DNA from: Pyrodictium abyssi | GTDB taxonomy: Archaea; Thermoproteota; Thermoprotei_A; Sulfolobales; Pyrodictiaceae | DNA length: 32,000 nucleotides | NCBI RefSeq assembly: GCF_036323395.1 | Contig: NZ_AP028907.1 | Span: 900,001 to 932,000 of the forward strand | Reading direction: 5' to 3' | Part shown: positions 10,652 through 28,750 of the stretch, in pieces | How positions within the stretch are numbered: position 1 is the first letter of the stretch | Layout of the letters: the number at the start of each line of letters is the position of its first letter | The notes under the pieces: model-generated | The model's database searches: none | Told to the model about the DNA's origin: nothing | The model's input: only the letters and a program-made list of their open reading frames with translations | Translations under genes and position numbers: made by a program

Positions 10652-10705
10652 AGCCTACTTATCCTGGCGGGCTTTACTGGGCTACAGCCGCGGGGGCTAT
10701 GCGTT

Positions 10706-12703: not shown

Positions 12704-12737
12704 TAGAAGCACCTACCCGGCCAGCCTCCAGAAAGGC

Positions 12738-12815: not shown

Positions 12816-12880
12816 CACTTATAAAACCCACCATCGCCGGTAGGATAACCCTTATAAGTTTTCTCCGGTGTTTCAGCTTC

Positions 12881-13621: not shown

Positions 13622-13628
13622 GCTTGAT

Positions 13629-14210: not shown

Positions 14211-14234
14211 AGAGGCTAGTTTACGGTATCAGGC

Positions 14235-14519: not shown

Positions 14520-14558
14520 CCCCGGCAGAACCCCGAGACGCTCAGTGCGAGGTATGGC

Positions 14559-14792: not shown

Positions 14793-14950
14793 GCAGATAG
14801 CCACCGCATCACCGCTCCCAACATCATCGCTCCGCGGCGGCCGCCGTCCCACAGCCCCCCAAAGGGGCTCAACGGCGGCTAACCATTGCCTACTGTAGTA
14901 TGGCTCTATAGAGCTTTATTAAGGTTTCATCTGCCTAGCATTGTCTGTCT

Positions 14951-15964: not shown

Positions 15965-15971
15965 GTCAAAG

Positions 15972-16520
15972 CTAGCGAGCAGAGCTACCTCCCCATAATC
16001 TAGGGATTATTTTGGTAAGCTTATGTACTTGCTCTGGGCTTAGTCTCACATAGCCGGCCCTGTAGAGGGAGTAGATTACCGGGTACTTCAGATGCATGAA
16101 GACCTCGGCTATAGATTTATCATTCTCGGCTTTCTCCTCCACTAAGTGCCTCCATGTTGGTATGTTGTACTTCTCCCCGTAGCGTAGGTTATACTCAAGC
16201 TTCTCGACGTAGTCTTCTAGGCTCTTCTCTGGATCGGGGTACTCCTTCAGACACTTCTTCAACCACTCAACGGCCTCCTCCTTGGTTACTAGGGGTGGTA
16301 GCTTTCCATCCCTGGTTTTCGGACCCTTGATTGCTACTGGTAGTACTGCCCAACAAAACGCTAGCCTTCCATCGGGTATGGGTATCTTCTCCTTGACAAG
16401 CACCTCAACCCATCCAAATCCTTCTAGCCTAGCATCGTATTCTATCTCCCCGAGGATGGGATCAACAGCTCTTCTCCACTCGGATATTGTAAGAGTTTTC
16501 AATGGTTTTCGCTTCGGCAA
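15972..16520 (-). CDS. Hypothetical protein, first gene of a two-gene cassette
   Basis: 182-aa ORF with a TTG start and no upstream ATG/GTG in frame. It ends 7 nt before the start of 14951..15964 on the same strand. I recognise no motif. Confidence 0.5.
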   Translation of the reverse strand: MPKRKPLKTLTISEWRRAVDPILGEIEYDARLEGFGWVEVLVKEKIPIPDGRLAFCWAVLPVAIKGPKTRDGKLPPLVTKEEAVEWLKKCLKEYPDPEKSLEDYVEKLEYNLRYGEKYNIPTWRHLVEEKAENDKSIAEVFMHLKYPVIYSLYRAGYVRLSPEQVHKLTKIIPRLWGGSSAR

Positions 16521-16609
16521 CTCGATGTTTAGCCTGAGGTCTGACTCCTCTAGCGCTAGGAAGAAGCCTAGTACCCTCAGATACTTCTCTGGATTTACTA
16601 TCCTACCCC

Positions 16610-16847
16610 AGGGACGTGCCTAAAGTTATTGAGCTATCCAGGAAGATGTACAGGAAAATTAAACAGAAATCTAATATGGGCAACAGTGTATAGCGCATTC
16701 GCTATACCGGCTGCTGCAGGAGCATTCTACGGTATGGGGTTCCTACTGCCTCCAGCTCTAGGAGCGTTGTTCATGTCGCTAAGCACTGTGATTGTGGCAG
16801 TAAATGCTAGCCTATCTAAGATAACATTCTACGCTCCACCAATATAG
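16610..16847 (+). pseudogene. copA: 3'-terminal remnant of a heavy-metal (CopA-type) P1B-ATPase gene, carrying an internal +1 frameshift
   Basis: The frame from 16610 reads RDVPKVIELSRKMYRKIKQ. After one extra A at about 16667 the next frame reads NLIWATVYSAFAIPAAAGAFYGMGFLLPPALGALFMSLSTVIVAVNASL...*. Together these match the last two TM helices of CopA-type pumps (DLRDV..AI.LSRKT..KIKQNL.WA..YN...IP.AAG........P..A..AM..SSV.VV.NS). The roughly 700 upstream codons of such a gene are absent. Confidence 0.75.
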
Positions 16848-17109
16848 TGCTCGGCTTAAGCTCCCACATGGTCCTGGTCATTTACTGTCAGTATAGCTGA
16901 ATCTGGCTTCCCAGAAAGGCGTCATCTTTGTGCCAAGGAGTGTCAGCTATGTTGTAAGGGGCTATACAGGAATATGTGGCGCCTAGCTGCAAGCTGGATA
17001 GGATCTAAAGGGTGTGTACTGGGGTAGGGCTTGCGAGGGTTCACTCAGTATACTGAAAGGCCCGAAGATTTGTGGCACAGTACTAATTTATCATATACGA
17101 GGGGCTGTG

Positions 17110-17147
17110 TTTAAAATTGGTAAATCAAGCAGAACAAGGAATGGTGA
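17110..17147 (+). promoter_or_regulatory. Candidate TATA box (TTTAAAAT, 17110..17117) and GGTGA ribosome-binding motif (17143..17147) for the cytochrome c gene
   Basis: The AT-rich octamer lies about 40 nt upstream of ATG 17157. GGTGA lies 10 nt upstream of the ATG. Spacing is compatible with an archaeal TATA-to-TSS distance of about 25 nt and a short leader. Sequence-only guess. Confidence 0.3.
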
Positions 17148-17156
17148 GTCCTTGCC

Positions 17157-17858
17157 ATGAAGCGGCTTCTACCTGTACTCGGCATACTAGCCTTCATGGT
17201 AGTAATTGGTGATGCCGCCCTCCATGCAAGCTCGATGAGCAACGGCGCTCCCCAGCTGAACTGTGTCCAGTGCCACGTAGGCGCAGATAAGAATCCTGCA
17301 GAGCTAGTAATTGAGGGACTCCCCGAGAAGTATGGGCCAGGCAAGACCTACAAGATAACAGTCAAGATAACAAAGGGTCCCGACTGCAGTGGCGGTGTTG
17401 CCTGTGGCGGCTTTGCAGTGCAGGTTAACGCTGGCGAGCTCGTGGTAACAGACGAAAAGAACACATTCATATCCACGACGCCAACTGGCGAGAAGCTACT
17501 AACACACACCAAGGATGGCTCTATGCTGCGCGAGTGGACCTTTGAGTGGAAGGCCCCCGACAAGCCTGAGCCGGTAACATTCAAGATAGCCGTAATTGCT
17601 GCCAATGGCGACGGTAGCTTCAACGGCGATGCCTATGCGTTTAAGGAGATAAGCATTGAGCCGACCAGTGGTGAGCAGGCGCAGACCCAAACACCGACAG
17701 TAACAACCAAGGTAGTCACCGAGACAAAGACCTCTACAACGGTTACAACAACACCGGCTGGCACCGTAAAGGAGCACAATACAGCAATGGCTATCGGCGT
17801 GGCAATAGTGGTGTTCATAATAGTAGTTGGCGGCTATCTAATGCTGACAAGGAAGTAG
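17157..17858 (+). CDS. Membrane-anchored monohaem c-type cytochrome (signal peptide, CxxCH, beta-rich ectodomain, Thr-rich stalk, C-terminal TM helix)
   Basis: 233 aa. The Sec-type signal is MKRLLPVLGILAFMVVIGDAALHA. There is a single haem-c motif, CVQCH (aa 36-40, nt 17262..17276). The Thr-rich linker is QTQTPTVTTKVVTETKTSTTVTTTP (nt about 17679..17768). The hydrophobic anchor is MAIGVAIVVFIIVVGGYLML, followed by TRK. Confidence 0.75.
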   Translation: MKRLLPVLGILAFMVVIGDAALHASSMSNGAPQLNCVQCHVGADKNPAELVIEGLPEKYGPGKTYKITVKITKGPDCSGGVACGGFAVQVNAGELVVTDEKNTFISTTPTGEKLLTHTKDGSMLREWTFEWKAPDKPEPVTFKIAVIAANGDGSFNGDAYAFKEISIEPTSGEQAQTQTPTVTTKVVTETKTSTTVTTTPAGTVKEHNTAMAIGVAIVVFIIVVGGYLMLTRK

Positions 17859-17876
17859 CCGGGCACGCCTTAAGCG

Positions 17877-17930
17877 TTTTGGATAGCTGAATCGTCAAAG
17901 TTCAAGATATTTTTAATAACTATTATTTTC
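17877..17930 (+). terminator. T-tract-rich region downstream of the cytochrome c gene (candidate archaeal intrinsic terminator, possibly also a promoter for the next gene)
   Basis: T4 at 17877..17880, T5 at 17910..17914 and T4 at 17926..17929, all within AT-rich sequence. Confidence 0.3.
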
Positions 17931-18090
17931 TAACACTAGAGTCTTCTAGCCGGCCGTAGATGGTCTAGAGTATTCCTATGCACCGTATATCGCGTCCACT
18001 AAAAATCCACGGCTACATTTGTTGCATAGTATGCCCGGGTGCGCGTCTCGTTGGCTGCCCTGGTTTAGCAGAATAAGGTGGAAGGCAATC

Positions 18091-19116
18091 ATGCCAGGTA
18101 GTGATGCGAGCGATAACACCGTCGAAGTATTCTGTATGGGAGGACTGGTATCGGAGAAGTGCACGAAAATTGTTGAGACACAACTCGATGAAACCAGTGC
18201 CGCCATAGACCTGATCGACAGTGTCTGGGCGAAAGAGCCGTCTAAACCGATACTACTTGTAGCGCCAGCGCTTAGCGGCTTCAGTAAGCTGCTAGAGGAG
18301 CTGAGCGAGCTTGGCAGAAACCCGTTCCTTGTAGAGGCAACCGGGATACCCGAGACCATATTGTCCGGGCTTTCTCTCGACAACATCATTGAGTACTGGG
18401 TGGGCATGCTAGTAGCGACTCTCGCAGAGAGAAAGAGTGCTCGACGAAGAAGCCCACGTGTCTCGCGGCGAGAGGTTCTGCGCCGCCTATTCCTAATACC
18501 TCCGAGGTACGTGATGCTGCCCAAACTCCGATCAACGCCAGTAGTTTGTAGACAGGATACCGTGTGCCCATTCTCCGCCTTGGAGGCAGGTAGGCTAGAT
18601 GAGGCCAAGTGCCAGGGCTGTATGCTCTGCGCTTGGGCGTGTCCAGAGAGCGTCGAGGCCCCGCTTTGGACGGGGCCTCTGGGGCTTCTCTACGCTTACC
18701 GATTCGTAGACGAATACGGGCTCGATGGCATACTCTTCATATGCCGTAGTAGGCTCGAGCGGCTAGACAGCTCAGCGGTCGAGGCCAGCCCGGCACGGCT
18801 CCTCCCCTTCCATGTACCGTGCGTGGGTTGGCTTGGTCCTGGGCTGCTCAGAGCACTAGCAGATCTCGGAGTTTATGTACACGTCTATGCTGGTAGGGAT
18901 GTGTGTCGTGGATGTGGCCTGGAGGCTGCTGGCGTTGGTGCAGCTGGTATGCTTGCTGCAAGCAGTATACGTGTTGGCGAGAATCTAGCCGAGGCGGGTG
19001 CAGCGGCGTTCACCGGCTATATGAGGCCAAGGAGGAGTCTTGAAGAGGTCGCTGAAAAAATGACGAAAGCTCTCGGGGTACCAGCTTCACATACTTCACA
19101 GAGGGAGCACAGCTAA
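18091..19116 (+). CDS. Iron-sulfur protein: 4Fe-4S ferredoxin motif fused to an MvhD/FlpD-like C-terminal domain
   Basis: The track ORF is 18019..19116, with in-frame ATGs at 18031, 18091 and 18136; the start is uncertain. It contains CPFSALEAGRLDEAKCQGCMLCAWACPE (a ferredoxin-type cluster). This is followed by ILFICRSRLERLD...LLPFHVPCVGWLGPGLLRALADLGVYVHVYAGRDVCRGCGLE, which mirrors the MvhD/FlpD pattern (C-containing strand ... vpC.G.v.p..il.Af..GadgV.v.gC....C). Confidence 0.5.
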   Translation: MPGSDASDNTVEVFCMGGLVSEKCTKIVETQLDETSAAIDLIDSVWAKEPSKPILLVAPALSGFSKLLEELSELGRNPFLVEATGIPETILSGLSLDNIIEYWVGMLVATLAERKSARRRSPRVSRREVLRRLFLIPPRYVMLPKLRSTPVVCRQDTVCPFSALEAGRLDEAKCQGCMLCAWACPESVEAPLWTGPLGLLYAYRFVDEYGLDGILFICRSRLERLDSSAVEASPARLLPFHVPCVGWLGPGLLRALADLGVYVHVYAGRDVCRGCGLEAAGVGAAGMLAASSIRVGENLAEAGAAAFTGYMRPRRSLEEVAEKMTKALGVPASHTSQREHS

Positions 19117-19117
19117 T

Positions 19118-20086
19118 CTAGTCTAGTCTCGTAGAGATACGGATATTGTCTATCCCTGTTCTCTTGAGCGGAAGCAGCTTTGAGGCCCTTTCGATAGCTG
19201 CTACACAGTCCTTGTCGGGTTCTCCGTGTTCTCCTGTCCTGCAGTAGACTCTAAGCTCTCCGTCCTGCCGGTCCACGTGTAGTATGTAGGGCTCGCCAGG
19301 GCCCAGAGCCTCGATGAGCGCCAGTGTACGTGAGTCCTCGTGCTCCATCCTGTCTATGTAGTCTCGGAGCACCTCTAGGGCTTCCTTGCCCCTTTCGCCG
19401 AGAAGCGCGATCAGGTTATCCTCTCCTACTGTGCTCAGCCGCCTCTCTAGCAGCTCGTGGGGAGAGCCTGGGCCCTCGACGAGGAAGTGGAGGAGTCCGG
19501 CCAGTATAGTGGTGTGGCTGGCGCCTATGAGGGCTAGCCATGACACAGCCTCTCCATAGTGTAGCCTACCGCGGCCATACTCGTAGTTCAGGGCAAGAGC
19601 CATGATGGGTGAGAGCTGGGACGCGCCTCCGGTTGCTCTGAGTGCAGCGTAGAGGCCGGTTAGCCCGGCCAGGCCTTGTATCCGGGGCCTCGGCATCTTG
19701 CCGTAGAGCTGCTCTAGTAGAGTGGCGGCCTCCTCTACTGCCTTGCTCGGCTCTTCGCCGCTGCGGTAGACACGGTGGGCGGCTAGTGCTAGGAGGCACT
19801 GGTCGGGGCTCACTCCGCACACGATGACGGAAGGCTCTGAGTCGAGGAGTACAGCAGCCGTGTAGAGGCCTACATAGTCTGCTCTTTTGGTGTCTATGGT
19901 CTCGGCTACAACGTCGTAGCCGAGGAACACGTAGTCGCCATAAACGTCTGCGTAGAATTCGTCAAGCAGTAGTATTCTCTGGCCTGGTTCGAGTACTTCG
20001 TCCAACCCAGGCCCAACTATGAGTATATGGTTGTTGTAGCGTGCTGTGGCCGGCATTCCAGCTTGTACCCCGCCACGCTGCTTCAA
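19118..20086 (-). CDS. Hypothetical protein (no recognisable family)
   Basis: 322-aa ORF with a TTG start at 20086 and an alternative ATG at 20056. Convergent with 18091..19116 (1-nt gap) and divergent from the napA-like gene. Codon usage looks native. The antisense ORFs 19324..19509, 19566..19820 and 19642..19827 were rejected. Confidence 0.5.
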   Translation of the reverse strand: MKQRGGVQAGMPATARYNNHILIVGPGLDEVLEPGQRILLLDEFYADVYGDYVFLGYDVVAETIDTKRADYVGLYTAAVLLDSEPSVIVCGVSPDQCLLALAAHRVYRSGEEPSKAVEEAATLLEQLYGKMPRPRIQGLAGLTGLYAALRATGGASQLSPIMALALNYEYGRGRLHYGEAVSWLALIGASHTTILAGLLHFLVEGPGSPHELLERRLSTVGEDNLIALLGERGKEALEVLRDYIDRMEHEDSRTLALIEALGPGEPYILHVDRQDGELRVYCRTGEHGEPDKDCVAAIERASKLLPLKRTGIDNIRISTRLD

Positions 20087-20258
20087 TTAGTTAGTTGTAG
20101 CCGATTTAATGCCCATCAGGGTATAGCCCTATACTCTGGAGGCCCGAAACAATATGGGTGACCACTAAAATATTGGTTTGAATGTGCAGATTCTTGTGGA
20201 GCCCTAAAGGGGTGTCCTTCTAGCGGCCTGTTCATAAGCTGCCAAGGGGGTCTGTATA

Positions 20259-23200
20259 TTGCCGGATGAGACTCGTAGAGATGTACTCAAGGCTATAGCT
20301 CTTGGTGCTGCCCTAGCTGCTGTAGGTGGTGTAGTCACATACTACGGTACTGGTAGAGAGAAGACGGTCTACGAGACAGTGACCAAGACGCTCACCGAGA
20401 CCCTAACAAAGACTGTGACCGAGACGATAACTCCTGGCCAGACTACCACTACAACCACAAAGGCTGAGGAGACCCAGCCTGCGAAGCCCAAGCTAGCTGT
20501 CGTCCCCGTAGGCCCCTGCAGGTTCTGTGGCGTTGGCTGCGGTGTCCAGGCGCAAGTGATACTGGACCCGCAGACCGGCATGGCTAAGGACATAGTAGCA
20601 CTAATGGGTATACCAGAATACCCCGTCAACAGGGGTGCACTCTGCACCAAGGCCTTCTACATTCACAAGGCAATAGGTTATGGTGGCAACAAGCAGGCGT
20701 TTGAGCAGAGGCTCAAGAAGCCACTGGTAATCAAGGACTGGATTATACCCGGCAAGAATAGGCCACCAATAACACCCGAGGAGATACCAGAGGCGCCTAG
20801 AGTCAAGAACCGCCAGGTAAGCAAGAACGTTGATGCTACAGTGCCCACGGTGGAGCACATAAAGAAGAACTATGTCGAAGTAGACTGGGACACTGCTGTA
20901 AAGTTCTTCACCGCAATGATGAAGTATGTTCTCCAGAAGTACGGCCCACACGGCTTCGCCTACTATGGTAGCGGCCAGCTAGGCACCGAGGAGAGCTACG
21001 CCATAAACAAGCTAACAAAGGCGGGCATACACACCAACAACCTAGACGGCAACCCGCGAATGTGTATGGTCAGCGCAGTCGGCGGCTTCATAACAAGCTA
21101 CGGTGCAGACGAGCCCGAAGTAAGCTACGACCACATAGACATACCAGAGCCCGATACTGGCGTACACGCCGACACGTTCCTACTAATAGGCACAAACACG
21201 GCAGAAGCCCACCCCATAGTATTCGGTCGTATTGCACAGGTGAAGCAGAAGAACCCCGACAAGGTCAAGGTTATACTAGCTGACCCCCGTAAGACAAGGA
21301 GCGGAAGCATCGCCGACCTATGGCTCCCGCTACGCTGGAGCATGGACGTGGCATTCCTCAACACTCTAGCCCACATACTAGCATTCGACCTAGACAAGTG
21401 TAGGGTAGACGCTAAGACCGGCAAGGTAGAGTGTAAGGGCGAGTACATAGACATAACCTGGCTAAAGCGCCACGCAGACTTCGCAATACCCGTCAACACT
21501 GCCAAGACATGGGCACTCAAGGAGTACAACAACAAGTACAACAACATGGGAGACCTAAACAAGGTCTGGGACATGGGTACAACAGCAAGCAACGCAGCAA
21601 ACTACAAGCTCTACCCAAGCGTCGGCAAGGAGTATAAGAGCGAAGACGAGGTAGAGAAGGACTGGTGGAAGGGCTTCGCGCTCTACCTAAAGTTCCTCGA
21701 GCTATACAAGCCAGAGATAATGGTGAAGATACTATTCGGCGACGAGAAGCCGCTAATCAGCAGGAAGACCGCTGAGCAGCTAATAAAGGCGGGTGAGCTG
21801 AGCCCAGACAAGGTAAACATGGCCAGCAACGAGCCGTTCGTCGAGATCGACCCGATAGAGGCTATGAGGCTAGCAGCTAAGTGGATGGCGAAGGGCAGGC
21901 TCCTCGTATTCTGGACGATGGGTGTCAACCAGAAGATCCAGGGCGTACACTCGGTCAACAGCATAATCAACATACTTGCCCTCACGGGCCAGATAGGCAA
22001 GTATGGCGCCGGTAGCTTTAGCCTCACCGGCCAGCCAAACGCTTGTGGCGGTATCCGTGACCAGGGCGGTCTGGCACACGTACTACCCTATGGCAGGCTT
22101 ATCGCCAAGAAGGCTGCTAGGGAGCAGGTAGAGAACATCTGGAAGAAGCTGACCGAAGAATACCTGAAGGAGCGCGGCTACTCGCCAGATGCCATAAAGA
22201 AGGAGGTAGAGAAGGTCTACGTACACCCGGTACCAGGCCCGCACGTAGTAGAGATGTTCCGCCGCGTCAACGCTGGCCAGCTAAAGATAGTCTGGATAGC
22301 CGAGACAAACCCAGGCCACAGCCTACCAAACGTGTTCAAGTTCCGCGCTGGCATGGCTAAGCCACACGACGATGACCCAGCGTTCCCGTTCATAGTAGTC
22401 AGCGACATCTACCCGACAAGGACAACCGACCTGGCGGACCTCGTACTGCCGGCAGCAGCATGGGGCGAGAAGGAGTTCAAGTACGGTTGTAGCGAGCGCC
22501 GCTACAGCGTAGCCAGGTACATAATACCGCCGCCAGGCGAAGCGGTAGGCGACCACATGATATTCGCGATGATAGGTAAGGCGCTAGAAGATGAGGGTCT
22601 AGTGCCAAAGGGTGTCGTAAGCGGCTTCTTCCCAGAGGATGTAGACAAGGCGGCTAAGGCTGCTGGTAAGAGCTGGGTACAGTACATAGTTGAGAAGAGC
22701 CGCGACAAGAAGTGGCATGAGGAGTTCCTCAACAGAGTATGGGACCGCGACATACTAAGCCTCGCCAAGAACACCTATTACGACTTCAGCTACGTGAAGC
22801 GTGAGGCATTCAGGAAGATGGTAAACGGCTTCCGCTGGCCATGGCCAGAGCAGTATGCTACCAACCCAAGCGTGAAGATGCGCTACGACAAGTACCAGTC
22901 TGCTAGCAGGTTCGCATACCCGTACGACCCGCTGATGCCAGATCCAGAGGTAATTAAGAAGATATACAACGACATAAAGGGCATGGACAGCGCTGAAGAG
23001 ATAGCAGCATACATAAGCAAGCTAGACCCCAACGTGGTACACCCAGTACACAAGGCCAAGTGGCTAGGCAAGCTATCGCACAACCCGGTGCTAATGAAGT
23101 GGGTGCTAAAGCACATAGTAGAGGAGATAGACGACCAGGCCTACAAGAAGGCAAGCAAGGTGCCGGTCGACTGGTATGTAGTGTTCTACGCTAAGCCTAC

Positions 23201-24023
23201 AGGCAGGATGACAATATGGGCTAGGCCGTGGCTACCAATAACCATGGACCATGAGACCGGTGAAGTAAAGATAAACAAGGAGGTCATAATAACCAGAGAG
23301 GCGCTAGACGTAGACACGGTGTTCAAGGGCAAGATATCGGTATTCAGCGAGCCAAAGGGCCCGTTCAAGGTACTTGAGAAGCACAAGGCCCTACCGGCCA
23401 GCGGCGACCCAGAGAAGGGCCTGCAGGTGCTAGCCACAAAGACTTGGGGCGAGGCCCTCCGGACAAACCGTGGCGACATAGAGGCGATCTTCGAGATAGC
23501 GCTAGCTCCGGCAGAGGCGCCAGGCTTCTCACTCAAGTACAAGCTCGACAACGGCCAGGTAATAACAGTGAGAGATGCTACTGGCTATGAGCTAGTAGCC
23601 ACCACCGGCCGTATAGTAGAGCACTGGCACACAGGAACAATGACAGGTAGAGTACCAGAACTCAAGCGTGTAAAGCCGGCAGCATACGTCGAGATACACA
23701 AGAAGCTGGCCGAGAAGCTAGGCATAAAGGACGGCGACTGGGTGACAGTAGAGAGCCCACGCGGCAAGGTAACCGTAAAGGCTGTGGTACTAGACCCGAA
23801 GACAGGCCTTGGCGGCCCCAGAATGGACTACGTGTTCATACCATGGTTCGACGAGAACAAGCTGGCGAACGCGCTAACACTAGACAACTACGACGTGCAG
23901 CCGTACTTCTTCCAGCCAGACTACAAGACATGCGCAGCGAGGATAAGGAAGGCGACGCCAGACGAGATACCCAAGAGCGAAGTCGAGCAGACCGGTAAGC
24001 CCAAGTACAGTATAAGAGTCTAA
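20259..24023 (+). CDS. napA: NapA-like molybdopterin (Mo-bisPGD) oxidoreductase catalytic subunit with Tat signal and Thr-rich stalk; unusually long at 1254 aa
   Basis: The Tat motif is [21 protein letters not shown]. The TxT repeat is [28 protein letters not shown] (nt 20364..20492). The [4Fe-4S] motif is [10 protein letters not shown]...[14 protein letters not shown], which closely resembles the E. coli-type NapA motif CRFCGTGCGV...PVNRGLNCIKGYF. The Mo-Cys context is [17 protein letters not shown]. Other NapA-like blocks are [59 protein letters not shown] and [11 protein letters not shown]. Confidence 0.85.
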   Translation: [1254 protein letters not shown]

Positions 24024-24025
24024 GC

Positions 24026-24053
24026 TGTTTTCTAATAAGTCAACGGTTTTTCT
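24026..24053 (+). terminator. T-tracts immediately after the napA-like stop (candidate intrinsic terminator)
   Basis: The sequence is TGTTTTCT (24026..24033) and GGTTTTTCT (24045..24053, with T5 at 24047..24051). The stop codon is at 24021..24023. Confidence 0.35.
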
Positions 24054-24503
24054 CACACTTAGACCGTATCGCACTGTTTCTCAGAATTCCGTAAACGCGG
24101 GCTCCAGCTCTTTAGGCGGTATCATGCTGTGATTTCTCCTAGAGGCGGTTACCGGACGGCTTCAATTCTTTTGTAGGACTTCTTAGGGATGTAAAATAGA
24201 ATGCGTAAACTGCTTCTTGGCGGTCGTCGTGTGTGACATGACGGCTAATAGTTGTCCAGGTTATTTGTCGAGGCGTGGCGTGTGCAACATCGTATGTAGT
24301 GTGCGCCGAAAAAGAGCGGTGTAGAGTTATTCGCTGGAGCTATGAGCGGCTTGTAACGAGGAGCTGAAGTAAGCGGGGCCACGTTCATAAGGAAGATTTG
24401 ATAGTGTTAATCAAGTGAATGTGAGTATTTTGCTATGTGGTGGTATGGTAGGAAGCGTCAGTGTACTAAGCTATATGTAGCTCACATGGAGGAATGGTTA
24501 AAG

Positions 24504-25508
24504 ATGAATAGGAGAACGGAAAGACGTGGCATTACGCGTAGAGAATTCATTAATGCAGGTATAGTGATTGCTGCTGCTACGGCTCTGGCTTCTTCAAGGC
24601 TGCTAGTAGTGGGTGTTTCAGCGGATTCTGGTGGTCCTGTTGGAGGCGGCGAATACTATGAGCCATTCTTCATAGAGGGTGATAATGAGCGTATCATGTA
24701 TTATGAGGCTTTGGGCTTCGTGGTCGATGTTGATGGTAGGAAGTGTGTAGCCAACCCCCTCTTACCGGGCAAGTGTATGGTGTACACGAAGCAGTACTAC
24801 GATGATAGGTTTGTACTCTTACCGCCAGGCGCTACGGAAGACTTCTATGGCCGGTGCATTCGCTGTGGTTTGTGCTACTTTGCGTGCCACTATATGGGGT
24901 ATAATGCGATAAAGCTAGCCGGGCTTAGTAGGGGTCTCCGCGAGCTCGGTGCACCTATAGTCGATGATATGATGAAATATCCGTGTACTCTGTGTATGGA
25001 GTGTACTAAGGTGTGTCCGACGGGGGCGCTTGAGGAGATACCTAAGGAAGAAGTGAAAATGGGTATAGCTCTCATAGACCCGGACCTCTGCTGGGCATGG
25101 AATAGTGGTGACTGTAAGAGCTGTGCTAAGGCGTGTCCCTTCGGCTCAGAAGTATTCGAATTCACGTATAACGAGTGGGGCGTTCACACGAAAGTGAACC
25201 CGGAGAAGTGTAAAGGGTGTGGTCTCTGTATACCTGCATGTCCTATAGGTGGCTCCGCCATACATGTGCTTCCTGTTGACGAGTATGAGCGTAGGGTAAA
25301 GAACTACAAGAACACTGACATGAGCTACGAGGAATATCTCAAACTGATACTCGAGACGGAGCGCACCGACCCGTTTAAGGCTACATGGAGGACGGCGATA
25401 AACACGGACTACATCTTGAATGTTAGGGGCTTGGAGGAGGAGAAGATCGAGACCGAGCTGGGCACTAGCAGTACAGGCATGAAACCAGCCAGCAACAATA
25501 AACAATAA
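24504..25508 (+). CDS. napG: NapG-like Tat-exported poly-ferredoxin (four 4Fe-4S motifs)
   Basis: The track ORF is 24435..25508. I prefer ATG 24504 (MNRRTERRGITRREFINAGIVIAAATALA), which places the twin-arginine motif at a normal distance from the N-terminus. The Cys clusters are CIRCGLCYFAC, CTLCMECTKVCP, CKSCAKACP and CKGCGLCIPACP. Confidence 0.75.
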   Translation: MNRRTERRGITRREFINAGIVIAAATALASSRLLVVGVSADSGGPVGGGEYYEPFFIEGDNERIMYYEALGFVVDVDGRKCVANPLLPGKCMVYTKQYYDDRFVLLPPGATEDFYGRCIRCGLCYFACHYMGYNAIKLAGLSRGLRELGAPIVDDMMKYPCTLCMECTKVCPTGALEEIPKEEVKMGIALIDPDLCWAWNSGDCKSCAKACPFGSEVFEFTYNEWGVHTKVNPEKCKGCGLCIPACPIGGSAIHVLPVDEYERRVKNYKNTDMSYEEYLKLILETERTDPFKATWRTAINTDYILNVRGLEEEKIETELGTSSTGMKPASNNKQ

Positions 25509-25527
25509 TAGTATATAGACGTAATGT

Positions 25528-26475
25528 ATGGGTGATACATACATGCCTCCACGCAGTGGTCTTGCCCGCAGGCTCTGGCTCACTATTCGCGGTGTACCGC
25601 CCCGTGGCAGGTATACCGTGGCTAGAAGGTTGATGCAGATAATAGTACTAAGCTTGTTTACAACTCAGCTACTAGTCTCGGGGGCAATCATTGCAGGCAG
25701 CCTCGCCTCGAGCAGGATATTCAACACGATACCCATGATGGATGTGTTCGCCTGGCTAGAACAAACAGCTGCAACACGCAGTCCGACATTCGAATCCGTT
25801 ATAGCTGTACTAGTAGTGTTCACGCTCTACAGCGTCCTGGGACGCTTCTTCTGCGGCTGGGTCTGCCCAATGGACCTAGTCTTTAGCCTATTTGAACGCA
25901 AGCTCTCGGGCCCAAGAGCGGCACCTCTAACAAGACCGCATAGCGCAGGACGTGTAGAGACGGCTATACCACTAGTGATGATGGCTATATACCTCGTGCT
26001 ATCAGTGCTACTAGGCCAGCCATTCTTCACTACAGTATCGCCGGTAGCGGGCATGACGAAGCTAGGCTCTACGCTTGTCGGCGTGATCTATAATATCCCT
26101 GGGGCTGCAATAGGGCTGGTCATGGCCTGGGCCACTATTACAGGGTTCGCTCTCATAGTAAACATAATAGCAGAGTATGTATTCGGCGTGAAGAGGCTCT
26201 GGTGCCGGTTCATCTGCCCTATAGGCAACACGTATGGTTACGTAATGAACCGCTATAGCCCTCTCCGCATAAAGGTGACAAGTGTAGAGAAGTGTAAGGG
26301 CTGTAACCTCTGTAGCATGGCATGTCCGATGAGCATAGACCTCCTGGAATACATACAGAGCGGAAGAGACGTTAGCGACTATAGGTGCTTCAAGTGCGGT
26401 CGCTGCATCGAGGCATGTCCGCATGGTGTGCTAAAGCTAGGCTTCAGCATCAAGAGAAGCAAAGACAAGCAGTAG
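25528..26475 (+). CDS. napH: NapH-like (NapH/MauN/NosR-type) integral membrane iron-sulfur protein
   Basis: 315 aa with about four hydrophobic helices. Two CxxCP motifs are embedded after TM helices (GRFFCGWVCPMD and RLWCRFICPIGN). The C-terminus carries two ferredoxin motifs, CKGCNLCSMACP and CFKCGRCIEACP. Confidence 0.8.
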   Translation: MGDTYMPPRSGLARRLWLTIRGVPPRGRYTVARRLMQIIVLSLFTTQLLVSGAIIAGSLASSRIFNTIPMMDVFAWLEQTAATRSPTFESVIAVLVVFTLYSVLGRFFCGWVCPMDLVFSLFERKLSGPRAAPLTRPHSAGRVETAIPLVMMAIYLVLSVLLGQPFFTTVSPVAGMTKLGSTLVGVIYNIPGAAIGLVMAWATITGFALIVNIIAEYVFGVKRLWCRFICPIGNTYGYVMNRYSPLRIKVTSVEKCKGCNLCSMACPMSIDLLEYIQSGRDVSDYRCFKCGRCIEACPHGVLKLGFSIKRSKDKQ

Positions 26476-26587
26476 ATCTGCTAAATGCCAGGCGTGTGGT
26501 GGGCCTGTCGATGCGTCATGGAATAGTGTGTTGTATAAAGGGGCTACCACGCGACAGAAATAGCTCGGGTCAAAACAAGGCTACAAG

Positions 26588-26971
26588 GTGGATGACGGAT
26601 TGGCTTTCGCTGCAGGCTTTCTCCTCCTAACCCCTCATTACCGTGACGAGCCTAAAAGGCGTGAGGTAAAACAGTACCTGGAGAATCTAGGCTTCGAACT
26701 CTACGAGGTCGGCAAACAAGCATTCATAGTATTCTACGTAGAGGCGCCCAACCCTAAGGCCCTTGAGGACGTCATTAAGATGGCAGAACAGCACGACGGT
26801 GTAGCAAAGGCATACATAGCTTTCGGCTTTATGGGCGACGATGCCGTTAGGGAGTGGATTAATGACGCTCTGGCTAGAGGCGAACTTGAGCTAGACGAGA
26901 GCACAAAAGAATACATACGAGGCATCTTGGCCAAGATAGCCCCGGACAAACTACGCGCTCAATCCCCGTAA
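26588..26971 (+). CDS. Small cytoplasmic protein with a NapD-like ferredoxin-fold core (tentative)
   Basis: 127 aa with a GTG start. The segment GFLLLTPHYRDEPKRREVKQYLENLGFELYEVGKQAFIVFYVEAPNPKALEDVIKMAEQHDGVAKAYIAFGF lines up by eye, element for element, with E. coli NapA-chaperone NapD (SLVVQAKSERISDISTQLNAFPGCEVAVSDAPSGQLIVVVEAEDSETLIQTIESVRNVEGVLAVSLVYH). The position after napAGH supports the call. The fold pattern is common (ACT/Lrp-like), so confidence is low. Confidence 0.35.
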   Translation: MDDGLAFAAGFLLLTPHYRDEPKRREVKQYLENLGFELYEVGKQAFIVFYVEAPNPKALEDVIKMAEQHDGVAKAYIAFGFMGDDAVREWINDALARGELELDESTKEYIRGILAKIAPDKLRAQSP

Positions 26972-27052: not shown

Positions 27053-28750
27053 TTGAGGCTCAATAGGGGCTCGGCCATGGCTCTACACCAGGTACTCCAG
27101 GAAGCCTCTAGAGCGATTGACGGACTCCGAGCCTTCGAGCTTGTTTCGCTCCTCTCGAGGTTGCACCGTATCCAGGGCGGCAGCGAGGTAGCAATAGCTG
27201 CTGAGCATGTAGCCCAGCTTCTGGGGGAACTAGGCATAGAGACTAGGCTGGAGACTTTCCGGGGTCCTCTAGGACTCTACGAGCATTGGGGCTTCTGGGA
27301 GCCTAGGGGCTGGCAGCTCTACTCGGCTGTGCTGGAGAGGAGGCGGAGTGACGGAAGTTGGGAAACAGTCGCGTCGAGCCATGAGACCCCCCTCATAGCT
27401 GTCGTGCATTCTCCGCCGGGTAGTGTGGAGGGAGAGGCTAGGCTAGTGGGCAGCCCCGATAGCTACCAGGGCGAGCCAGTGCCGGTGGTGTCTAGCCTGG
27501 CATGGGAGGCGTACTACCGCCTCGTTGAGGCCGGCGCAGATGCAGTAATAGCGTTCCACGAGGGGCCGGGCGTCAGGTACTGGGGCCTCTACCCTCCGTT
27601 CTTCCAGGAGCCGCCAAGCGCGCCAGCGGTGAGTATCGAACGGGAGAAAGCGCTCCGTCTAAACCGCGAGAGAGTCAGGATACGCGTAGAAGCCGAGTAC
27701 CACACAATGCCGGAGACGCCGGTGCTGCTAGCCCGCGTTGGAGGCGATGGCGGCCCTGTGGTGCTGCTGGTAGCCCATATTTGTCATCCAAGACCTGGCG
27801 CGCATGATAACGCTAGTGGCGTCGCTGTGCTCGTCGAGGTAATGGCAGCGCTCAAGGCTGTAGAGAGCCGGCTAAGAGACGCGGGGGTCTCGGTTATAGC
27901 GGTCGCAGCGCCCGAGTGGACGGGGCTTGCAGCAGCCTTTACCCAGGGCCTGCTAGAGCCCTCAGGCATCATAGCCGCGCTGAGCATAGACATGGTTGGC
28001 GCGCGGCTAGGCTCTACGGGTGGGGTACTCCACCTCATAGGGAGCCCGCCCCCGCTAGTGTCTCCGCTAGACCCGGCGCTAGACGCGGCTATCGCAGCGA
28101 GCGTAGAGGGGCCCTATACCGGTCTAAAGAGCTACGAGTGGGGAAGCGACCATGACGTAGCAATAGGGATGGGTGTGCCGAGCTCGCTGCTCAATGAGTG
28201 GCCCGACCGGTACTACCACACAAGCCTCGACACGCCAGACAACCTGTCGCCGCAACGGCTGGCAGCTACAGCCAGGGCTATAGCCGGTGCCATAGTAGCT
28301 CTCGGAGAGAGGCTAGAATATGCAATAGAGGCGGCAAAGGCCAGCACCAGCCTCTACATCTACAGGGCGCTGCTATCCGACATGGCTGTGGAAGGCAACG
28401 CCCGGGAGGCAGCCGTCAAGCTAGCAGAGTACTCCAGAGCGTACCTCGACTCCATCCGTCGCGCCATGAAGAGAGGTGAGCAGGAGCAGCCGTGGAGCCG
28501 CGACATAGATGCCGTGGTTAGGCCGCCCATAACCCGGACTTACCTCTACCTGCGCGGCGGCGAGGCTGGCAAGAAGATACTAGAGCTCGGGGATCGGGAG
28601 AGGAGCGGGGTCAAGGCTATGATGACTATCGCCGCGGCTACTGGTAGCATGGAGATAGCTAAGCTATACTACCAGATGAAGACCGGTAGGCAGCCTAGCG
28701 AAGAGCTAGTAGAACTCGTAGAGAGGATGCTAGCCATGGGCCGCGGCTAG
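27053..28750 (+). CDS. M28-family metallopeptidase-like protein
   Basis: 565 aa with a TTG start at 27053 and an alternative ATG at 27077. It contains the zinc-site block VAHICHPRPGAHDNASGVAVLVEVMAAL (H...GA.DNASG) and later SDHD and YHTSLDTPDN, which are typical of M28 aminopeptidase-like proteins. Confidence 0.7.
   Translation: MRLNRGSAMALHQVLQEASRAIDGLRAFELVSLLSRLHRIQGGSEVAIAAEHVAQLLGELGIETRLETFRGPLGLYEHWGFWEPRGWQLYSAVLERRRSDGSWETVASSHETPLIAVVHSPPGSVEGEARLVGSPDSYQGEPVPVVSSLAWEAYYRLVEAGADAVIAFHEGPGVRYWGLYPPFFQEPPSAPAVSIEREKALRLNRERVRIRVEAEYHTMPETPVLLARVGGDGGPVVLLVAHICHPRPGAHDNASGVAVLVEVMAALKAVESRLRDAGVSVIAVAAPEWTGLAAAFTQGLLEPSGIIAALSIDMVGARLGSTGGVLHLIGSPPPLVSPLDPALDAAIAASVEGPYTGLKSYEWGSDHDVAIGMGVPSSLLNEWPDRYYHTSLDTPDNLSPQRLAATARAIAGAIVALGERLEYAIEAAKASTSLYIYRALLSDMAVEGNAREAAVKLAEYSRAYLDSIRRAMKRGEQEQPWSRDIDAVVRPPITRTYLYLRGGEAGKKILELGDRERSGVKAMMTIAAATGSMEIAKLYYQMKTGRQPSEELVELVERMLAMGRG

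What the first reader, a model, noticed from the sequence alone, without database searches (positions are those of the whole stretch)
17157..26971. Nap-type (periplasmic-nitrate-reductase-like) respiratory gene set in an archaeal context, with no NapB or NapC
Seen: 20259..24023 encodes a Mo-bisPGD enzyme. Its Fe-S motif ([10 protein letters not shown]...[13 protein letters not shown]), Mo-Cys context ([13 protein letters not shown]) and C-terminus ([48 protein letters not shown]) are NapA-like. It is followed by a Tat-signal tetra-cluster ferredoxin (NapG-like). Next is a membrane protein with two CxxCP motifs plus two ferredoxin motifs (NapH-like), then a small NapD-like ORF. No dihaem NapB-like and no tetrahaem NapC/NrfH-like ORF exists anywhere in the window. 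The only CxxCH nearby is the monohaem protein at 17157..17858.

Established: NapGH serves as a quinol-oxidising module for NapAB in several bacteria. The archaeal dissimilatory nitrate reductases I know of as characterised are Nar-type (outward-facing pNar).

Inference: this is an archaeal NapAGH(D)-type oxyanion reductase wired differently from the bacterial systems. The substrate (nitrate or another oxyanion) cannot be decided by eye.
Basis: partly seen in the sequence, partly recalled or inferred. Interest (0 to 1): 0.72.

Follow-up and report, generated by a model that had tools for sequence, protein, structure and literature searches.

The report
Archaeal Nap-type nitrate reductase cluster
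This Pyrodictium abyssi locus encodes an outward-facing, Nap-type nitrate reductase system of an unusually long subtype already reported in its relative P. delaneyi and in some bacteria; the one new lead is that the neighbouring single-haem protein looks like the missing electron-donor subunit of that subtype.

Summary
Window 17157..26971 (Pyrodictium abyssi) encodes a 1254-aa Mo-bisPGD enzyme, NapG-like and NapH-like proteins and a small divergent NapD-like ORF. No NapB or NapC exists in the 32 kb.

The catalytic subunit is Nap:
- NCBIfam and PDB both rank NapA first.
- The D. desulfuricans NapA residues C140/M141/D155/E156/M308/R354 are all conserved.
- An NJ tree separates Nap, including this clade, from Nas plus Fdh with bootstrap 99.

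It is not new in kind. P. delaneyi has the collinear cluster, published as "NapADFGH", with the protein detected and nitrate reductase activity measured. The enzyme belongs to a "long NapA" subfamily shared with Desulfurivibrio, Nitrospirota and Ca. Kryptonia. Thorup 2017 described that type as napAGHD without napB, "electron donor unknown".

The added result concerns the monohaem protein at 17157..17858. It is a Reeler-fold cytochrome c encoded next to long NapA in 21 of 23 loci across Bacteria and Archaea. It is never found beside canonical NapA, where NapB sits instead. Its Desulfurivibrio dismutans orthologue was detected only in nitrate-grown cells. It is therefore the likely NapB substitute.

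Two further cytoplasmic genes (365 aa Fe-S, 322 aa orphan) accompany the archaeal clusters. The substrate in P. abyssi itself is untested.

The parts
17157..17858 (+). Monohaem c-type cytochrome with a Reeler/F-spondin-type beta-sandwich. It has an N-terminal signal or anchor helix, CVQCH at residues 36-40, a Thr-rich linker (170-199) and a C-terminal TM helix (212-230). It is the proposed electron donor to NapA, standing in for NapB.
   Evidence: - NCBIfam choice_anch_V, E 3e-29; Pfam Reeler, weak.
- AF2 model is a beta-sandwich, pLDDT 73; best Foldseek hit is the F-spondin reeler domain, E 2e-5.
- Invariant AP..C..CH, GGFA, THT and R.W...W.AP across archaeal and bacterial homologues.
- Adjacent to long NapA in 21 of 23 loci and in none of the 74 canonical NapA loci (L007-L080).
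- No similarity to E. coli NapB beyond CxxCH.
- D. dismutans orthologue RS11650 was detected only on formate+nitrate.
18019..19116 (+). Cytoplasmic Fe-S protein (365 aa as the longest ORF; probable start about 18091). It has 12 invariant Cys, including one CX2CX2CX3CP motif at residue 198. It is an accessory gene of the archaeal clusters, called "NapF" in the P. delaneyi Hulk paper, and its function is unknown.
   Evidence: - Only weak single-motif Fer4 hits.
- Not hit by a NapF profile.
- A PDB profile search gives only generic ferredoxin-motif matches, E >= 0.012.
- Conserved near NapA in L001, L081, L084, L090-L092 and L115, but not in bacterial loci.
- Alignment A6.
- P. delaneyi orthologue Pyrde_1152 is higher on nitrate, not significant.
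19118..20086 (-). 322-aa cytoplasmic orphan protein with four invariant Cys (C90, C97, C282, C294), transcribed divergently from napA. It is the most faithful archaeal companion of NapA. Proposed role: a maturation or assembly factor.
   Evidence: - No Pfam, NCBIfam or PDB hit.
- Only 25 representatives among 1.84 billion proteins.
- Present next to NapA in every Pyrodictiaceae locus, including Ignicoccus islandicus.
- P. delaneyi orthologue Pyrde_1153 was detected only in nitrate-grown cells: N 12.6-53.8 versus F 0,0,0,0; padj 3.8e-8.
20259..24023 (+). Long-type NapA (1254 aa).
- Twin-arginine signal (TRRDVLK, residues 5-11) and hydrophobic segment 9-27.
- Thr-rich linker 38-67, specific to the archaeal proteins.
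- [4Fe-4S] ligands C87, C90, C94, C129.
- Mo ligand C269.
- About 500 aa of insertions relative to the 723-aa D. desulfuricans NapA.
   Evidence: - NCBIfam NapA is the best hit.
- PDB best hit is monomeric D. desulfuricans NapA at 392 bits, then heterodimeric NapAs at 276-288, then Fdh at 201 or less. Dd C140/M141/D155/E156/M308/R354 align with C269/M270/D284/E285/M554/R600, all invariant in A1.
- NJ tree support: long clade 100; Nap versus Nas+Fdh 99.
- Topology.
24435..25508 (+). NapG-like Tat-exported poly-ferredoxin with four Fe-S motifs. Probable true start is about 24504.
   Evidence: - NCBIfam NapG is the best hit, 94.6 bits, covering profile positions 34-217 of 254.
- NapG jackhmmer profile, E 2.3e-52.
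- TRREF twin-arginine motif, h-region and Cys motifs.
25528..26475 (+). NapH-like integral membrane quinol dehydrogenase subunit. It has 4-5 hydrophobic segments, two CX3CP motifs (residues 109 and 226) and two C-terminal CX2CX2CX3CP motifs (256 and 287).
   Evidence: - NCBIfam NapH is the best hit, 154 bits, nearly full length.
- NapH jackhmmer profile, E 6.8e-90.
- Motifs and hydropathy.
26588..26971 (+). Divergent NapD-like protein (123-127 aa; annotated start 26600). It has a ferredoxin-like beta-alpha-beta-beta-alpha-beta core plus two extra C-terminal helices. Proposed role: the Tat-signal-binding chaperone of NapA.
   Evidence: - Pfam NapD is the top family for 18 of 19 homologues: best E 6.4e-4, window E 0.019 at 15.5 bits, cut-off 28.
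- NapD profile bridged through the D. alkaliphilus NapD: E 1.3e-6. NapD HMM built from canonical loci only: E 0.046 for the window and 5.5e-4 for H. butylicus.
- Same position after napH as the D. alkaliphilus napD.
- AF2 pLDDT 82. Foldseek returns only generic ferredoxin-like/ACT folds.

Best explanation
[quoted passage not shown] It belongs to a distinct "long NapA" subfamily shared by Pyrodictiaceae and several bacterial lineages.

Proposed electron path (inferred from anatomy and from the known NapGH function in Wolinella and E. coli):
1. Quinol is oxidised by the NapH/NapG module.
2. NapG passes electrons to the monohaem Reeler-fold cytochrome c (17157..17858). This protein takes the place of dihaem NapB.
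3. The cytochrome reduces the [4Fe-4S] cluster of NapA.
4. Electrons reach Mo-bisPGD, bound by Cys269, where nitrate is reduced to nitrite.

Maturation and export:
- NapA and NapG are exported folded through Tat.
- The NapD-like protein chaperones the NapA signal peptide.
- The 365-aa Fe-S protein and the 322-aa orphan are cytoplasmic accessory or maturation factors found only in the archaeal clusters.

Archaeal adaptation (inferred): there is no outer membrane, so the partners are tethered. NapA carries an N-terminal hydrophobic anchor plus a Thr-rich stalk. The cytochrome carries a Thr-rich stalk plus a C-terminal TM helix. Bacterial homologues have neither.

What is shown here: homology, active-site conservation, phylogeny and gene linkage. 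What is taken from orthologues only: expression and enzyme activity. What is inferred: the cytochrome-to-NapA step, the tethering, and the roles of the two accessory proteins.
For: NapA identity:
- Best NCBIfam and PDB hits are NapA.
- All six D. desulfuricans NapA active-site and funnel residues checked (C140, M141, D155, E156, M308, R354) are conserved.
- NJ bootstrap 99 separates Nap plus the long clade from Nas and Fdh.

NapG, NapH and NapD:
-.
- Gene order is the same as the D. alkaliphilus cyt-napAGHD operon.

Cytochrome as partner:
- Homologues sit directly upstream of long napA in Nitrospirota, Desulfurivibrio and an unclassified archaeal MAG, and inside all Pyrodictiaceae clusters.
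- Of 22 metagenome loci found through the cytochrome, 16 carry long NapA, 5 end too early and 1 is unclear.
- 21 of 23 long-NapA loci have the cytochrome and none has NapB. None of the 74 canonical NapA loci (L007-L080) has the cytochrome, and 69 loci in the set scored as canonical have a NapB hit.

Nitrate link in orthologues:
- D. alkaliphilus napAGHD is highly expressed with nitrate but not during S disproportionation. Its authors call the electron donor "unknown" (PMC5516251).
- In the D. dismutans proteome, NapA changes by log2FC -6 (S8 versus nitrate). NapG, NapH and the choice-of-anchor-V protein RS11650 were detected only on nitrate.
- P. delaneyi grows on nitrate. Pyrde_1154 is very abundant, nitrate reductase activity was measured, and Pyrde_1153 was detected only on nitrate.

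Orthology: the P. abyssi and P. delaneyi clusters are collinear at 73-78% nucleotide identity.
Against: - All Nap HMM scores are below the curated equivalog cut-offs.
- NapA of P. delaneyi is not nitrate-induced and is at least as abundant on Fe(III) oxide.
- P. abyssi, Hyperthermus butylicus and Ignicoccus islandicus carry the enzyme but are not known to me as nitrate respirers. This is my own recollection and was not checked.
- The cytochrome family also occurs without an adjacent Nap in Ignicoccus pacificus. It also occurs in I. hospitalis (PMC4429474), where I did not examine gene context and my recollection that this organism lacks Nap is unchecked. I. islandicus has NapA without adjacent cytochrome, NapG or NapH.
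- There is no biochemical evidence for haem attachment or for electron transfer from the cytochrome to NapA.
- The NapD assignment is sub-threshold and the fold match is not specific.
- Only 32 kb of the genome could be inspected for NapB and NapC.
Confidence: 0.62

Rival explanations
1. It is a Nap-type nitrate reductase, but NapA is truly monomeric and takes electrons directly from NapG. The adjacent Reeler-fold cytochrome would then have another role, for example a general extracytoplasmic electron shuttle as in the Nap-free Ignicoccus species.
For: - The closest solved relative is the monomeric D. desulfuricans NapA.
- Thorup et al. inferred a monomeric enzyme.
- The cytochrome family occurs without an adjacent Nap in I. 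pacificus, and also occurs in I. hospitalis.
- In P. delaneyi the cytochrome is about 40-fold less abundant than NapA in TMT intensities.
Against: - Gene linkage is near-obligate across two domains, and the cytochrome and NapB are mutually exclusive.
- The D. dismutans orthologue was detected only on nitrate, together with NapG and NapH.
Confidence: 0.2
2. The archaeal enzyme has a Nap fold, but its physiological substrate in P. abyssi and other Pyrodictiaceae is a different acceptor (another oxyanion, or an acceptor connected with Fe(III) or sulfur metabolism). Nitrate reduction would be a side activity.
For: - Pyrde_1154 is constitutive and slightly more abundant on ferrihydrite.
- The gene is present in H. 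butylicus and I. islandicus, which are not described as nitrate reducers as far as I recall.
- About 500 aa of insertions of unknown function are present.
- HMM scores are far below the NapA equivalog cut-off.
Against: - All six NapA active-site and funnel residues checked are conserved.
- Bacterial members of the same clade respond to nitrate.
- P. delaneyi and Pyrolobus fumarii, which carry the enzyme, do respire nitrate. The P. delaneyi strain Hulk genome paper reports the Nap complex as the dissimilatory nitrate reductase it identified.
- The orf322 orthologue was detected only on nitrate.
Confidence: 0.13
3. In P. abyssi the cluster is a silent or decaying inheritance with no role in the organism's physiology.
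For: - As far as I recall, P. abyssi is described as a heterotroph without reported nitrate respiration (own recollection, not checked).
- A mobile element has inserted 100 bp upstream of the first gene.
- In a related genome (L081) the cytochrome gene is N-terminally truncated.
Against: - All seven ORFs are intact and full-length, with every catalytic and cluster-binding residue conserved.
- The 100-bp upstream region is conserved with P. delaneyi.
Confidence: 0.05

Closest known systems
Pyrodictium delaneyi Nap-like cluster (Pyrde_1151-1157; strain Hulk Pdsh_02795 and Pdsh_02785-02770, published as NapADFGH)
   Same: - Orthologous and collinear: same seven genes in the same order and orientation, with the same flanks (ArgRS and tRNA-Arg upstream, M28 peptidase downstream), at 73-78% nucleotide identity.
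- The organism respires nitrate, and the protein was detected.
   Different: - P. abyssi has a 4.2-kb integrase/ParE element inserted between tRNA-Arg and the cluster.
- The publications do not count the monohaem protein or the 322-aa protein as part of the system. They label the 365-aa Fe-S protein NapF, which profile searches here do not support.
Desulfurivibrio alkaliphilus / D. dismutans napAGHD ("novel type of NapA", Thorup et al. 2017)
   Same: - Same long-NapA subfamily: 38-46% identity over 92% of the length, with shared insertions.
- Same order cyt-napA-napG-napH-napD.
- No napB or napC.
- Nitrate-responsive expression.
   Different: - The bacterial proteins are soluble periplasmic forms, with no Thr-rich stalks and no C-terminal anchor on the cytochrome.
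- The bacterial loci lack the 365-aa Fe-S and 322-aa genes.
- The bacterial NapD is a recognisable 85-aa protein.
Wolinella succinogenes-type NapC-independent Nap (napAGHBFLD)
   Same: NapGH serves as the quinol-oxidising module feeding a periplasmic NapA without NapC. This is established knowledge, cited in PMC5812927.
   Different: Wolinella has dihaem NapB and an approximately 930-aa NapA. In my loci, the canonical NapAs of Campylobacterota come with NapB and never with the Reeler cytochrome.
Monomeric NapA of Desulfovibrio desulfuricans ATCC 27774 (PDB 2NAP, 2JIO)
   Same: It is the best solved relative (392 bits). The Fe-S ligands, Mo-Cys, M141, M308, R354 and D155/E156 are identical, and no NapB is present.
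   Different: It is 723 aa versus 1254 aa. In the tree the long clade does not group specifically with the Desulfovibrio NapAs (bootstrap 1).
E. coli NapFDAGHBC
   Same: It has homologous NapA, NapG, NapH and (weakly) NapD.
   Different: E. coli has NapB, NapC and NapF. None is detectable in this window.
Archaeal outward-facing Nar (pNar) of Pyrobaculum and haloarchaea
   Same: It is also an archaeal, Tat-exported, outward-facing respiratory nitrate reductase (my own knowledge; PAE3611/3612 are mentioned in PMC8105010).
   Different: It belongs to a different Mo-bisPGD family (NarGH type, Asp ligand). The DMSO-reductase type II profile scores only 28.6 bits on this protein.
Spondin-fold monohaem cytochromes c of Ignicoccus hospitalis (Igni_0579, Igni_1052; Kletzin et al. 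2015)
   Same: Same predicted family and fold. Homologues in Pyrolobus and Hyperthermus with a C-terminal TM helix were noted there.
   Different: That paper contains no mention of Nap or nitrate reductase, so the link was not made there. I recall that I. hospitalis lacks Nap, but I did not check this. The family is therefore probably broader than the Nap-linked subgroup.

Membership tests
NapA (periplasmic nitrate reductase catalytic subunit) | N-terminal [4Fe-4S] motif CX2CX3C...C followed by Mo-bisPGD domains | tested here: met
   C87, C90, C94 and C129 are invariant. Pfam Molybdop_Fe4S4, Molybdopterin and Molydop_binding all hit.
NapA (periplasmic nitrate reductase catalytic subunit) | Cys ligand to Mo followed by Met, plus the NapA active-site and funnel residues (Dd NapA C140, M141, D155, E156, M308, R354) | tested here: met
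   They align with C269, M270, D284, E285, M554 and R600. All are invariant across archaeal and bacterial long NapAs.
NapA (periplasmic nitrate reductase catalytic subunit) | Twin-arginine signal peptide | tested here: met
   TRRDVLK at residues 5-11, followed by a hydrophobic region.
NapA (periplasmic nitrate reductase catalytic subunit) | Score at or above the curated NCBIfam/TIGRFAM equivalog cut-off | tested here: not met
   NF010055 scores 396 bits against a cut-off of 904. TIGR01706 scores 375 against 930.55. The match is split into three stretches by insertions.
NapA (periplasmic nitrate reductase catalytic subunit) | Branches within Nap to the exclusion of Nas and Fdh | tested here: met
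   NJ tree, 52 sequences, 745 columns. The split (2 Fdh + 3 Nas) versus (all Nap including the long clade) has bootstrap 99/100. This is distance-based only, and Psr, Arr and Ttr references were not included. Their HMMs score 64 bits or less.
NapA (periplasmic nitrate reductase catalytic subunit) | Nitrate reductase activity | not testable with these tools
   Evidence comes from orthologues only: activity and nitrate growth in P. delaneyi, and nitrate-dependent expression in Desulfurivibrio.
Heterodimeric NapAB | Dihaem NapB subunit encoded with NapA | tested here: not met
   The window has no ORF with two CxxCH motifs. The NapB profile has no hit in the window or in any long-NapA locus.
NapC/NrfH-dependent Nap | Tetrahaem membrane quinol dehydrogenase NapC | tested here: not met
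   There is no NapC profile hit and no multihaem ORF in the 32 kb.
NapG | Tat-exported protein with four [4Fe-4S] motifs, encoded next to napH | tested here: met
   TRREF motif, three canonical motifs and one variant Cys motif. NapG is the best NCBIfam hit, but at 94.6 bits it is below the cut-off of 269.
NapH | Four TM helices, two CX3CP motifs and two C-terminal [4Fe-4S] motifs | tested here: met
   Hydrophobic segments at 38-56, 91-109, 145-163 and 182-221. CX3CP at residues 109 and 226. Ferredoxin motifs at 256 and 287. NapH is the best hit at 154 bits, below the cut-off of 234.
NapD | Small ferredoxin-fold protein matching PF03927 that binds the NapA Tat signal | tested here: inconclusive
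   - PF03927 is the top family for 18 of 19 homologues, but all are below threshold. The window scores E 0.019 at 15.5 bits (cut-off 28).
- NapD HMM from canonical loci only: E 0.046. Profile bridged through D. alkaliphilus: E 1.3e-6.
- The fold class is compatible, but Foldseek shows no NapD-specific match.
- Binding to the signal peptide is not testable here.
NapF | Cytoplasmic protein with four ferredoxin-type motifs matching TIGR00402 | tested here: not met
   The 365-aa Fe-S protein has one canonical motif only. It has no TIGR00402 hit at E < 0.01 and is not found by a NapF profile.
Long-NapA subfamily (Desulfurivibrio / Kryptonia type) | NapA of about 1100-1250 aa with shared insertions, an upstream Reeler-fold monohaem gene, napGH(D) downstream, and no napB or napC | tested here: met
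   Clade bootstrap is 100. Alignments cover 92-100% of the protein. Synteny is conserved.

The most novel reading that the evidence does not exclude
The Reeler/F-spondin-fold monohaem cytochrome c is the dedicated redox partner of a cross-domain "long NapA" subfamily. It would be a structurally unrelated replacement for dihaem NapB, defining a fourth Nap architecture (cyt-NapA-NapGH-NapD). This would answer the "electron donor unknown" question left open for Desulfurivibrio. In Pyrodictiaceae the module has been converted into a membrane-tethered ecto-complex and has gained two lineage-specific cytoplasmic factors. One of these, the 322-aa protein, was detected only in nitrate-grown cells in its P. 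delaneyi orthologue.
Probability: 0.55. Interest if true: 0.6.

Novelty: new member of a known kind. Interest (0 to 1): 0.4.

Why it matters
The basic finding is already in the literature. An archaeal Nap without NapB or NapC is published for the sister species P. delaneyi, and the same enzyme type is published for Desulfurivibrio. The P. abyssi locus therefore adds an orthologue, not a new system.

Three things are worth carrying forward:
- The archaeal and bacterial "long NapA" enzymes are one subfamily.
- That subfamily has a conserved, previously overlooked monohaem partner with a non-cytochrome-like beta-sandwich fold. This gives a concrete, testable answer to how these NapB-less enzymes are reduced.
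- The cluster is present in species not known to respire nitrate (P. abyssi, H. butylicus, I. islandicus). This suggests an untested respiratory capacity near the upper temperature limit of life.

Tried and rejected
1. Genomic-island hypothesis. A tRNA-Arg, an archaeal integrase, ParE and a GC dip lie just upstream. I rejected the idea for the nap genes. P. delaneyi is collinear up to the tRNA 3' end and again from 100 bp before the cytochrome gene, so only 12816..17056 is an insertion. No att repeat was found.

2. NapF identity of the 365-aa Fe-S protein. It is not supported.

3. Homology of the monohaem protein to NapB. There is none beyond CxxCH.

4. Structural proof of NapD. The AF2 model is good, but Foldseek gives only generic ferredoxin-like/ACT hits.

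5. Function of the 322-aa protein. It has no hit in Pfam, NCBIfam or a PDB profile search, and only 25 relatives in 1.84 billion proteins.

6. The genome-contig scan was saturated by canonical NapAs and missed the complete Pyrodictiaceae genomes. I recovered those through the look-up of encoding contigs.

7. Expression of the D. alkaliphilus cytochrome gene. Table S3 of Thorup et al. is not held as text (one search was rejected as a malformed query).

8. Rfam, tRNA and small-ORF scans of the cluster and of the 480-nt napA-napG spacer gave nothing.

Full report

NCBIfam ranks NapA first for the 1254-aa protein: 396 and 375 bits, against Fdh-alpha 306, NasC 238, NasA 203, and 64 bits or less for arsenite oxidase, PhsA and TtrA. 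It ranks NapG first for 24435..25508 (94.6 bits) and NapH first for 25528..26475 (154 bits). All of these are below the curated equivalog cut-offs of 904, 269 and 234.

Pfam sees only the generic Mo-bisPGD and ferredoxin domains. A six-frame scan finds three CxxCH in the 32 kb, and only the one in ORF 17157..17858 lies in a credible ORF. Iterated profiles seeded with E. coli NapB, NapC and NapF hit no further ORF in the window: NapB and NapC hit nothing, and NapF hits only the NapG and NapH ORFs.

Small corrections:
- The NapH motifs are CX3CP, not CxxCP.
- NapG probably starts near 24504.
- The small ORF is only weakly NapD-like.

The window comes from Pyrodictium abyssi. The cytochrome and the small ORF match its proteins at 100% and 99% identity.

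**2. What is the catalytic subunit?**

Among solved structures the best match is the monomeric NapA of Desulfovibrio desulfuricans (392 bits). Heterodimeric NapAs follow at 276-288 bits and formate dehydrogenases at 201 bits or less.

In that alignment Dd C140 (the Mo ligand), M141, D155, E156, M308 and R354 correspond to window C269, M270, D284, E285, M554 and R600. All six are invariant in an alignment of archaeal and bacterial relatives.

A neighbour-joining tree of 52 sequences and 745 columns included three assimilatory nitrate reductases, E. coli FdhF and FdnG (references fetched). It separates (Fdh + Nas) from (all Nap including this protein) with bootstrap 99.

Two caveats apply. The tree is distance-based. 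Psr, Arr and Ttr were judged only from HMM scores.

**3. A distinct "long NapA" subfamily shared by two domains**

Database relatives fall into three groups:
- 67-92% identity in Pyrodictiaceae: Hyperthermus butylicus, Pyrolobus fumarii, Ignicoccus islandicus and MAGs.
- A gap, then about 38-42% identity over 92% of the length in bacterial proteins of about 1110 aa. These come from Nitrospirota/Thermodesulfovibrionales, Dissulfurispira, Desulfurivibrio and Ca. Kryptonium.
- Ordinary 750-830-aa NapAs, which align over only 23-31% of the query.

The roughly 500 extra residues are insertions largely shared by the archaeal and bacterial long forms. In the tree the long clade, its archaeal half and its bacterial half each have bootstrap 100.

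This is the enzyme Thorup et al. (PMC5516251) described in D. alkaliphilus. They reported a napAGHD operon, highly expressed with nitrate. They noted the lack of napB and wrote "its electron donor is unknown". They called it "a novel type of NapA ... similar to that of Ca. Kryptonia".

**4. The surroundings: a conserved seven-gene archaeal module and a five-gene bacterial core**

I ran tblastn with the window ORFs against fetched loci.

- H. butylicus and P. delaneyi have the same seven genes in the same order as the window.
- Two other Pyrodictiaceae genomes have the same genes rearranged.
- Pyrolobus lacks the 365-aa gene nearby.
- I. islandicus keeps only the 322-aa gene next to NapA.

In bacteria the order is monohaem gene, napA, napG, napH, and napD where the contig reaches that far. 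In D. alkaliphilus the last gene carries a weak PF03927 NapD hit.

**5. The monohaem protein**

It matches NCBIfam choice_anch_V (E 3e-29) and weakly matches Pfam Reeler. The AF2 model (pLDDT 73) is a beta-sandwich, and its best PDB match is the F-spondin reeler domain. It shares nothing with E. coli NapB except CxxCH.

Archaeal and bacterial homologues share invariant AP..C..CH, GGFA, THT and R.W...W.AP.

Linkage tested from both directions:
- In loci found through NapA, 9 of 10 informative long-type loci have the cytochrome.
- In 22 metagenome loci found through the cytochrome (36% identity or more), 16 have long NapA alongside, 5 contigs end too early and 1 is unclear.
- With an HMM, 21 of 23 long-NapA loci have the cytochrome and none has NapB. 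None of the 74 canonical NapA loci (L007-L080) has the cytochrome, and 69 loci in the set scored as canonical have a NapB hit.

Independent expression evidence comes from the D. dismutans proteome table. [quoted passage not shown] NapA changed by log2FC -6.0. The authors list only NapAGHD.

I found no paper in the searchable library that links this protein to Nap. Kletzin et al. 2015 had predicted the spondin-fold monohaem family in Ignicoccus hospitalis and noted C-terminally anchored homologues in Pyrolobus and Hyperthermus. That paper contains no mention of Nap or nitrate reductase.

The linkage is not absolute:
- I. pacificus has a homologue with no Nap nearby.
- I. hospitalis, which I recall as lacking Nap (not checked here), has two copies.

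**6. The other components**

NapG and NapH have the canonical features: Tat motif, four clusters, 4-5 hydrophobic segments, two CX3CP motifs and two ferredoxin motifs.

The 127-aa ORF:
- PF03927 NapD is the top Pfam family for 18 of 19 homologues, but always below threshold.
- A NapD HMM built only from canonical loci gives E 0.046 for the window and 5.5e-4 for H. butylicus. Bridging through the D. alkaliphilus NapD gives 1.3e-6.
- The AF2 model (pLDDT 82) is beta-alpha-beta-beta-alpha-beta plus two helices, but Foldseek finds only generic ferredoxin-like folds.
- I call it a probable divergent NapD.

The 365-aa protein has 12 invariant Cys but only one canonical ferredoxin motif. It is not NapF by any profile.

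The 322-aa protein is an orphan. It has no family or PDB hit and only 25 relatives in 1.84 billion proteins. It has four invariant Cys. Its P. delaneyi orthologue Pyrde_1153 was found only in nitrate-grown cells (padj 3.8e-8).

**7. Archaeal adaptations**

Compared with the bacterial homologues, archaeal NapA has a roughly 40-residue Thr-rich segment after the Tat h-region (16 Thr in 30 residues). The archaeal cytochrome has a Thr-rich segment plus a C-terminal TM helix. I infer that both are tethered to the outer face of the membrane on probably glycosylated stalks. That would make sense in a cell without an outer membrane. This was not tested.

**8. Context and mobility**

A tRNA-Arg, an archaeal phage-type integrase and a ParE toxin lie just upstream, and GC dips there. 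That suggested a genomic island.

Comparison with P. delaneyi settles the question. The genomes are collinear up to the 3' end of tRNA-Arg (window 12815) and again from 17057. So 12816..17056 is a 4.2-kb insertion specific to P. abyssi, and the nap cluster lies outside it. No att repeat was found.

**9. Comparison with what is known, and novelty**

The orthologous P. delaneyi cluster is published as "NapADFGH", with growth on nitrate (PMC5556600). [quoted passage not shown] It was not differentially abundant between nitrate and ferrihydrite (PMC8105010). A 2026 Pyrodictiaceae MAG paper also lists napA.

The headline of the finding, a Nap-type set in an archaeon without NapB or NapC, is therefore already known in kind. 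The P. abyssi locus is a new member.

The additions from this work:
- The archaeal enzyme and the Desulfurivibrio/Kryptonia type are unified into one subfamily.
- The Reeler-fold cytochrome shows strong comparative and proteomic support as its conserved partner.
- Two further archaeal companions are recognised.

**10. Verdict**

Novelty is "new member of a known kind", and interest is moderate at 0.40.

The substrate in P. abyssi itself remains untested. NapA is constitutive in P. delaneyi. Several carriers are not known nitrate respirers, which keeps a minority alternative-substrate reading alive.

Noticed in passing
window 12816..17056: A 4.2-kb insertion sits exactly at the 3' end of tRNA-Arg(tcg) (12738..12815) and is absent from P. 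delaneyi.

ORFs in the insertion:
- 12881..13621: unknown.
- 13629..14210: archaeal phage integrase PF16795.
- 14235..14519 (-): ParE toxin.
- 14559..14852 (-): candidate antitoxin.
- 14951..15964 (-) and 15972..16520 (-): unknown.
- 16629..16847: small membrane ORF.

No flanking att repeat was found, so it is probably a decayed integrated element.
   Followed up: yes
window 24284..24371 (inside the 480-nt napA-napG spacer): An 88-nt block is conserved with P. delaneyi at 78% identity inside an otherwise unalignable intergenic region. It holds no ORF of 36 aa or more on the + strand and has no Rfam hit. It could be a promoter or regulatory element for napGH-napD.
   Followed up: partly
window 17057..17156: The 100 nt upstream of the cytochrome gene are highly conserved with P. 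delaneyi, even though the mobile element abuts them. The region includes a TTTAAAA box about 40 nt before the ATG and is likely the promoter of the cyt / Fe-S gene pair.
   Followed up: no
L085 (Ignicoccus islandicus CP006867.1) 8908..13741: An obligate sulfur reducer (as I recall) carries the long NapA at 69% identity with only the 322-aa companion. No NapG, NapH, NapD or cytochrome lies within 10 kb. A rubrerythrin-like gene follows instead.
   Followed up: partly
L116 (Ignicoccus pacificus CP006868.1) 8001..8642: A close homologue of the monohaem Reeler cytochrome (63% identity over 70% of the query) has no Nap genes within 8 kb. A 528-aa multihaem cytochrome lies upstream. The family therefore has roles beyond Nap.
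   Followed up: partly
L006 (archaeon MAG JALTZH010000177.1) 281..2460: An unclassified archaeal MAG has a long NapA closer to the bacterial type (40% identity to the window). It is preceded by a cytochrome with a C-terminal TM anchor but no Thr-rich stalk. This may be a second archaeal lineage carrying the system.
   Followed up: no
L081 (GCA_013540595.1) 18579..19064: In this Pyrodictiaceae genome the cytochrome gene appears N-terminally truncated. The signal peptide and the CxxCH motif are missing from the ORF, while the other six genes are intact. This could be a pseudogene or a sequencing frameshift.
   Followed up: no
L082 (Pyrolobus fumarii) 5219..7798 and 1..392; L084 (H. butylicus) 23217..23729; L005 5425..7065: Large multihaem cytochromes (859, 553 and 835 aa) lie within a few kb of the nap cluster in several genomes, but not in the P. 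abyssi window. They may be alternative electron inputs.
   Followed up: no
P. delaneyi proteome tables (PMC8105010, supplement 2): Pyrde_1153, the orthologue of window ORF 19118..20086, is listed among proteins "significantly down in Fe": present in all four nitrate replicates and absent from all four ferrihydrite replicates. None of the main-text passages I retrieved mentions it in connection with nitrate reduction.
   Followed up: yes
window 27053..28750: An M28-family peptidase gene follows the cluster in both P. abyssi and P. delaneyi. It is probably unrelated flanking synteny.
   Followed up: no
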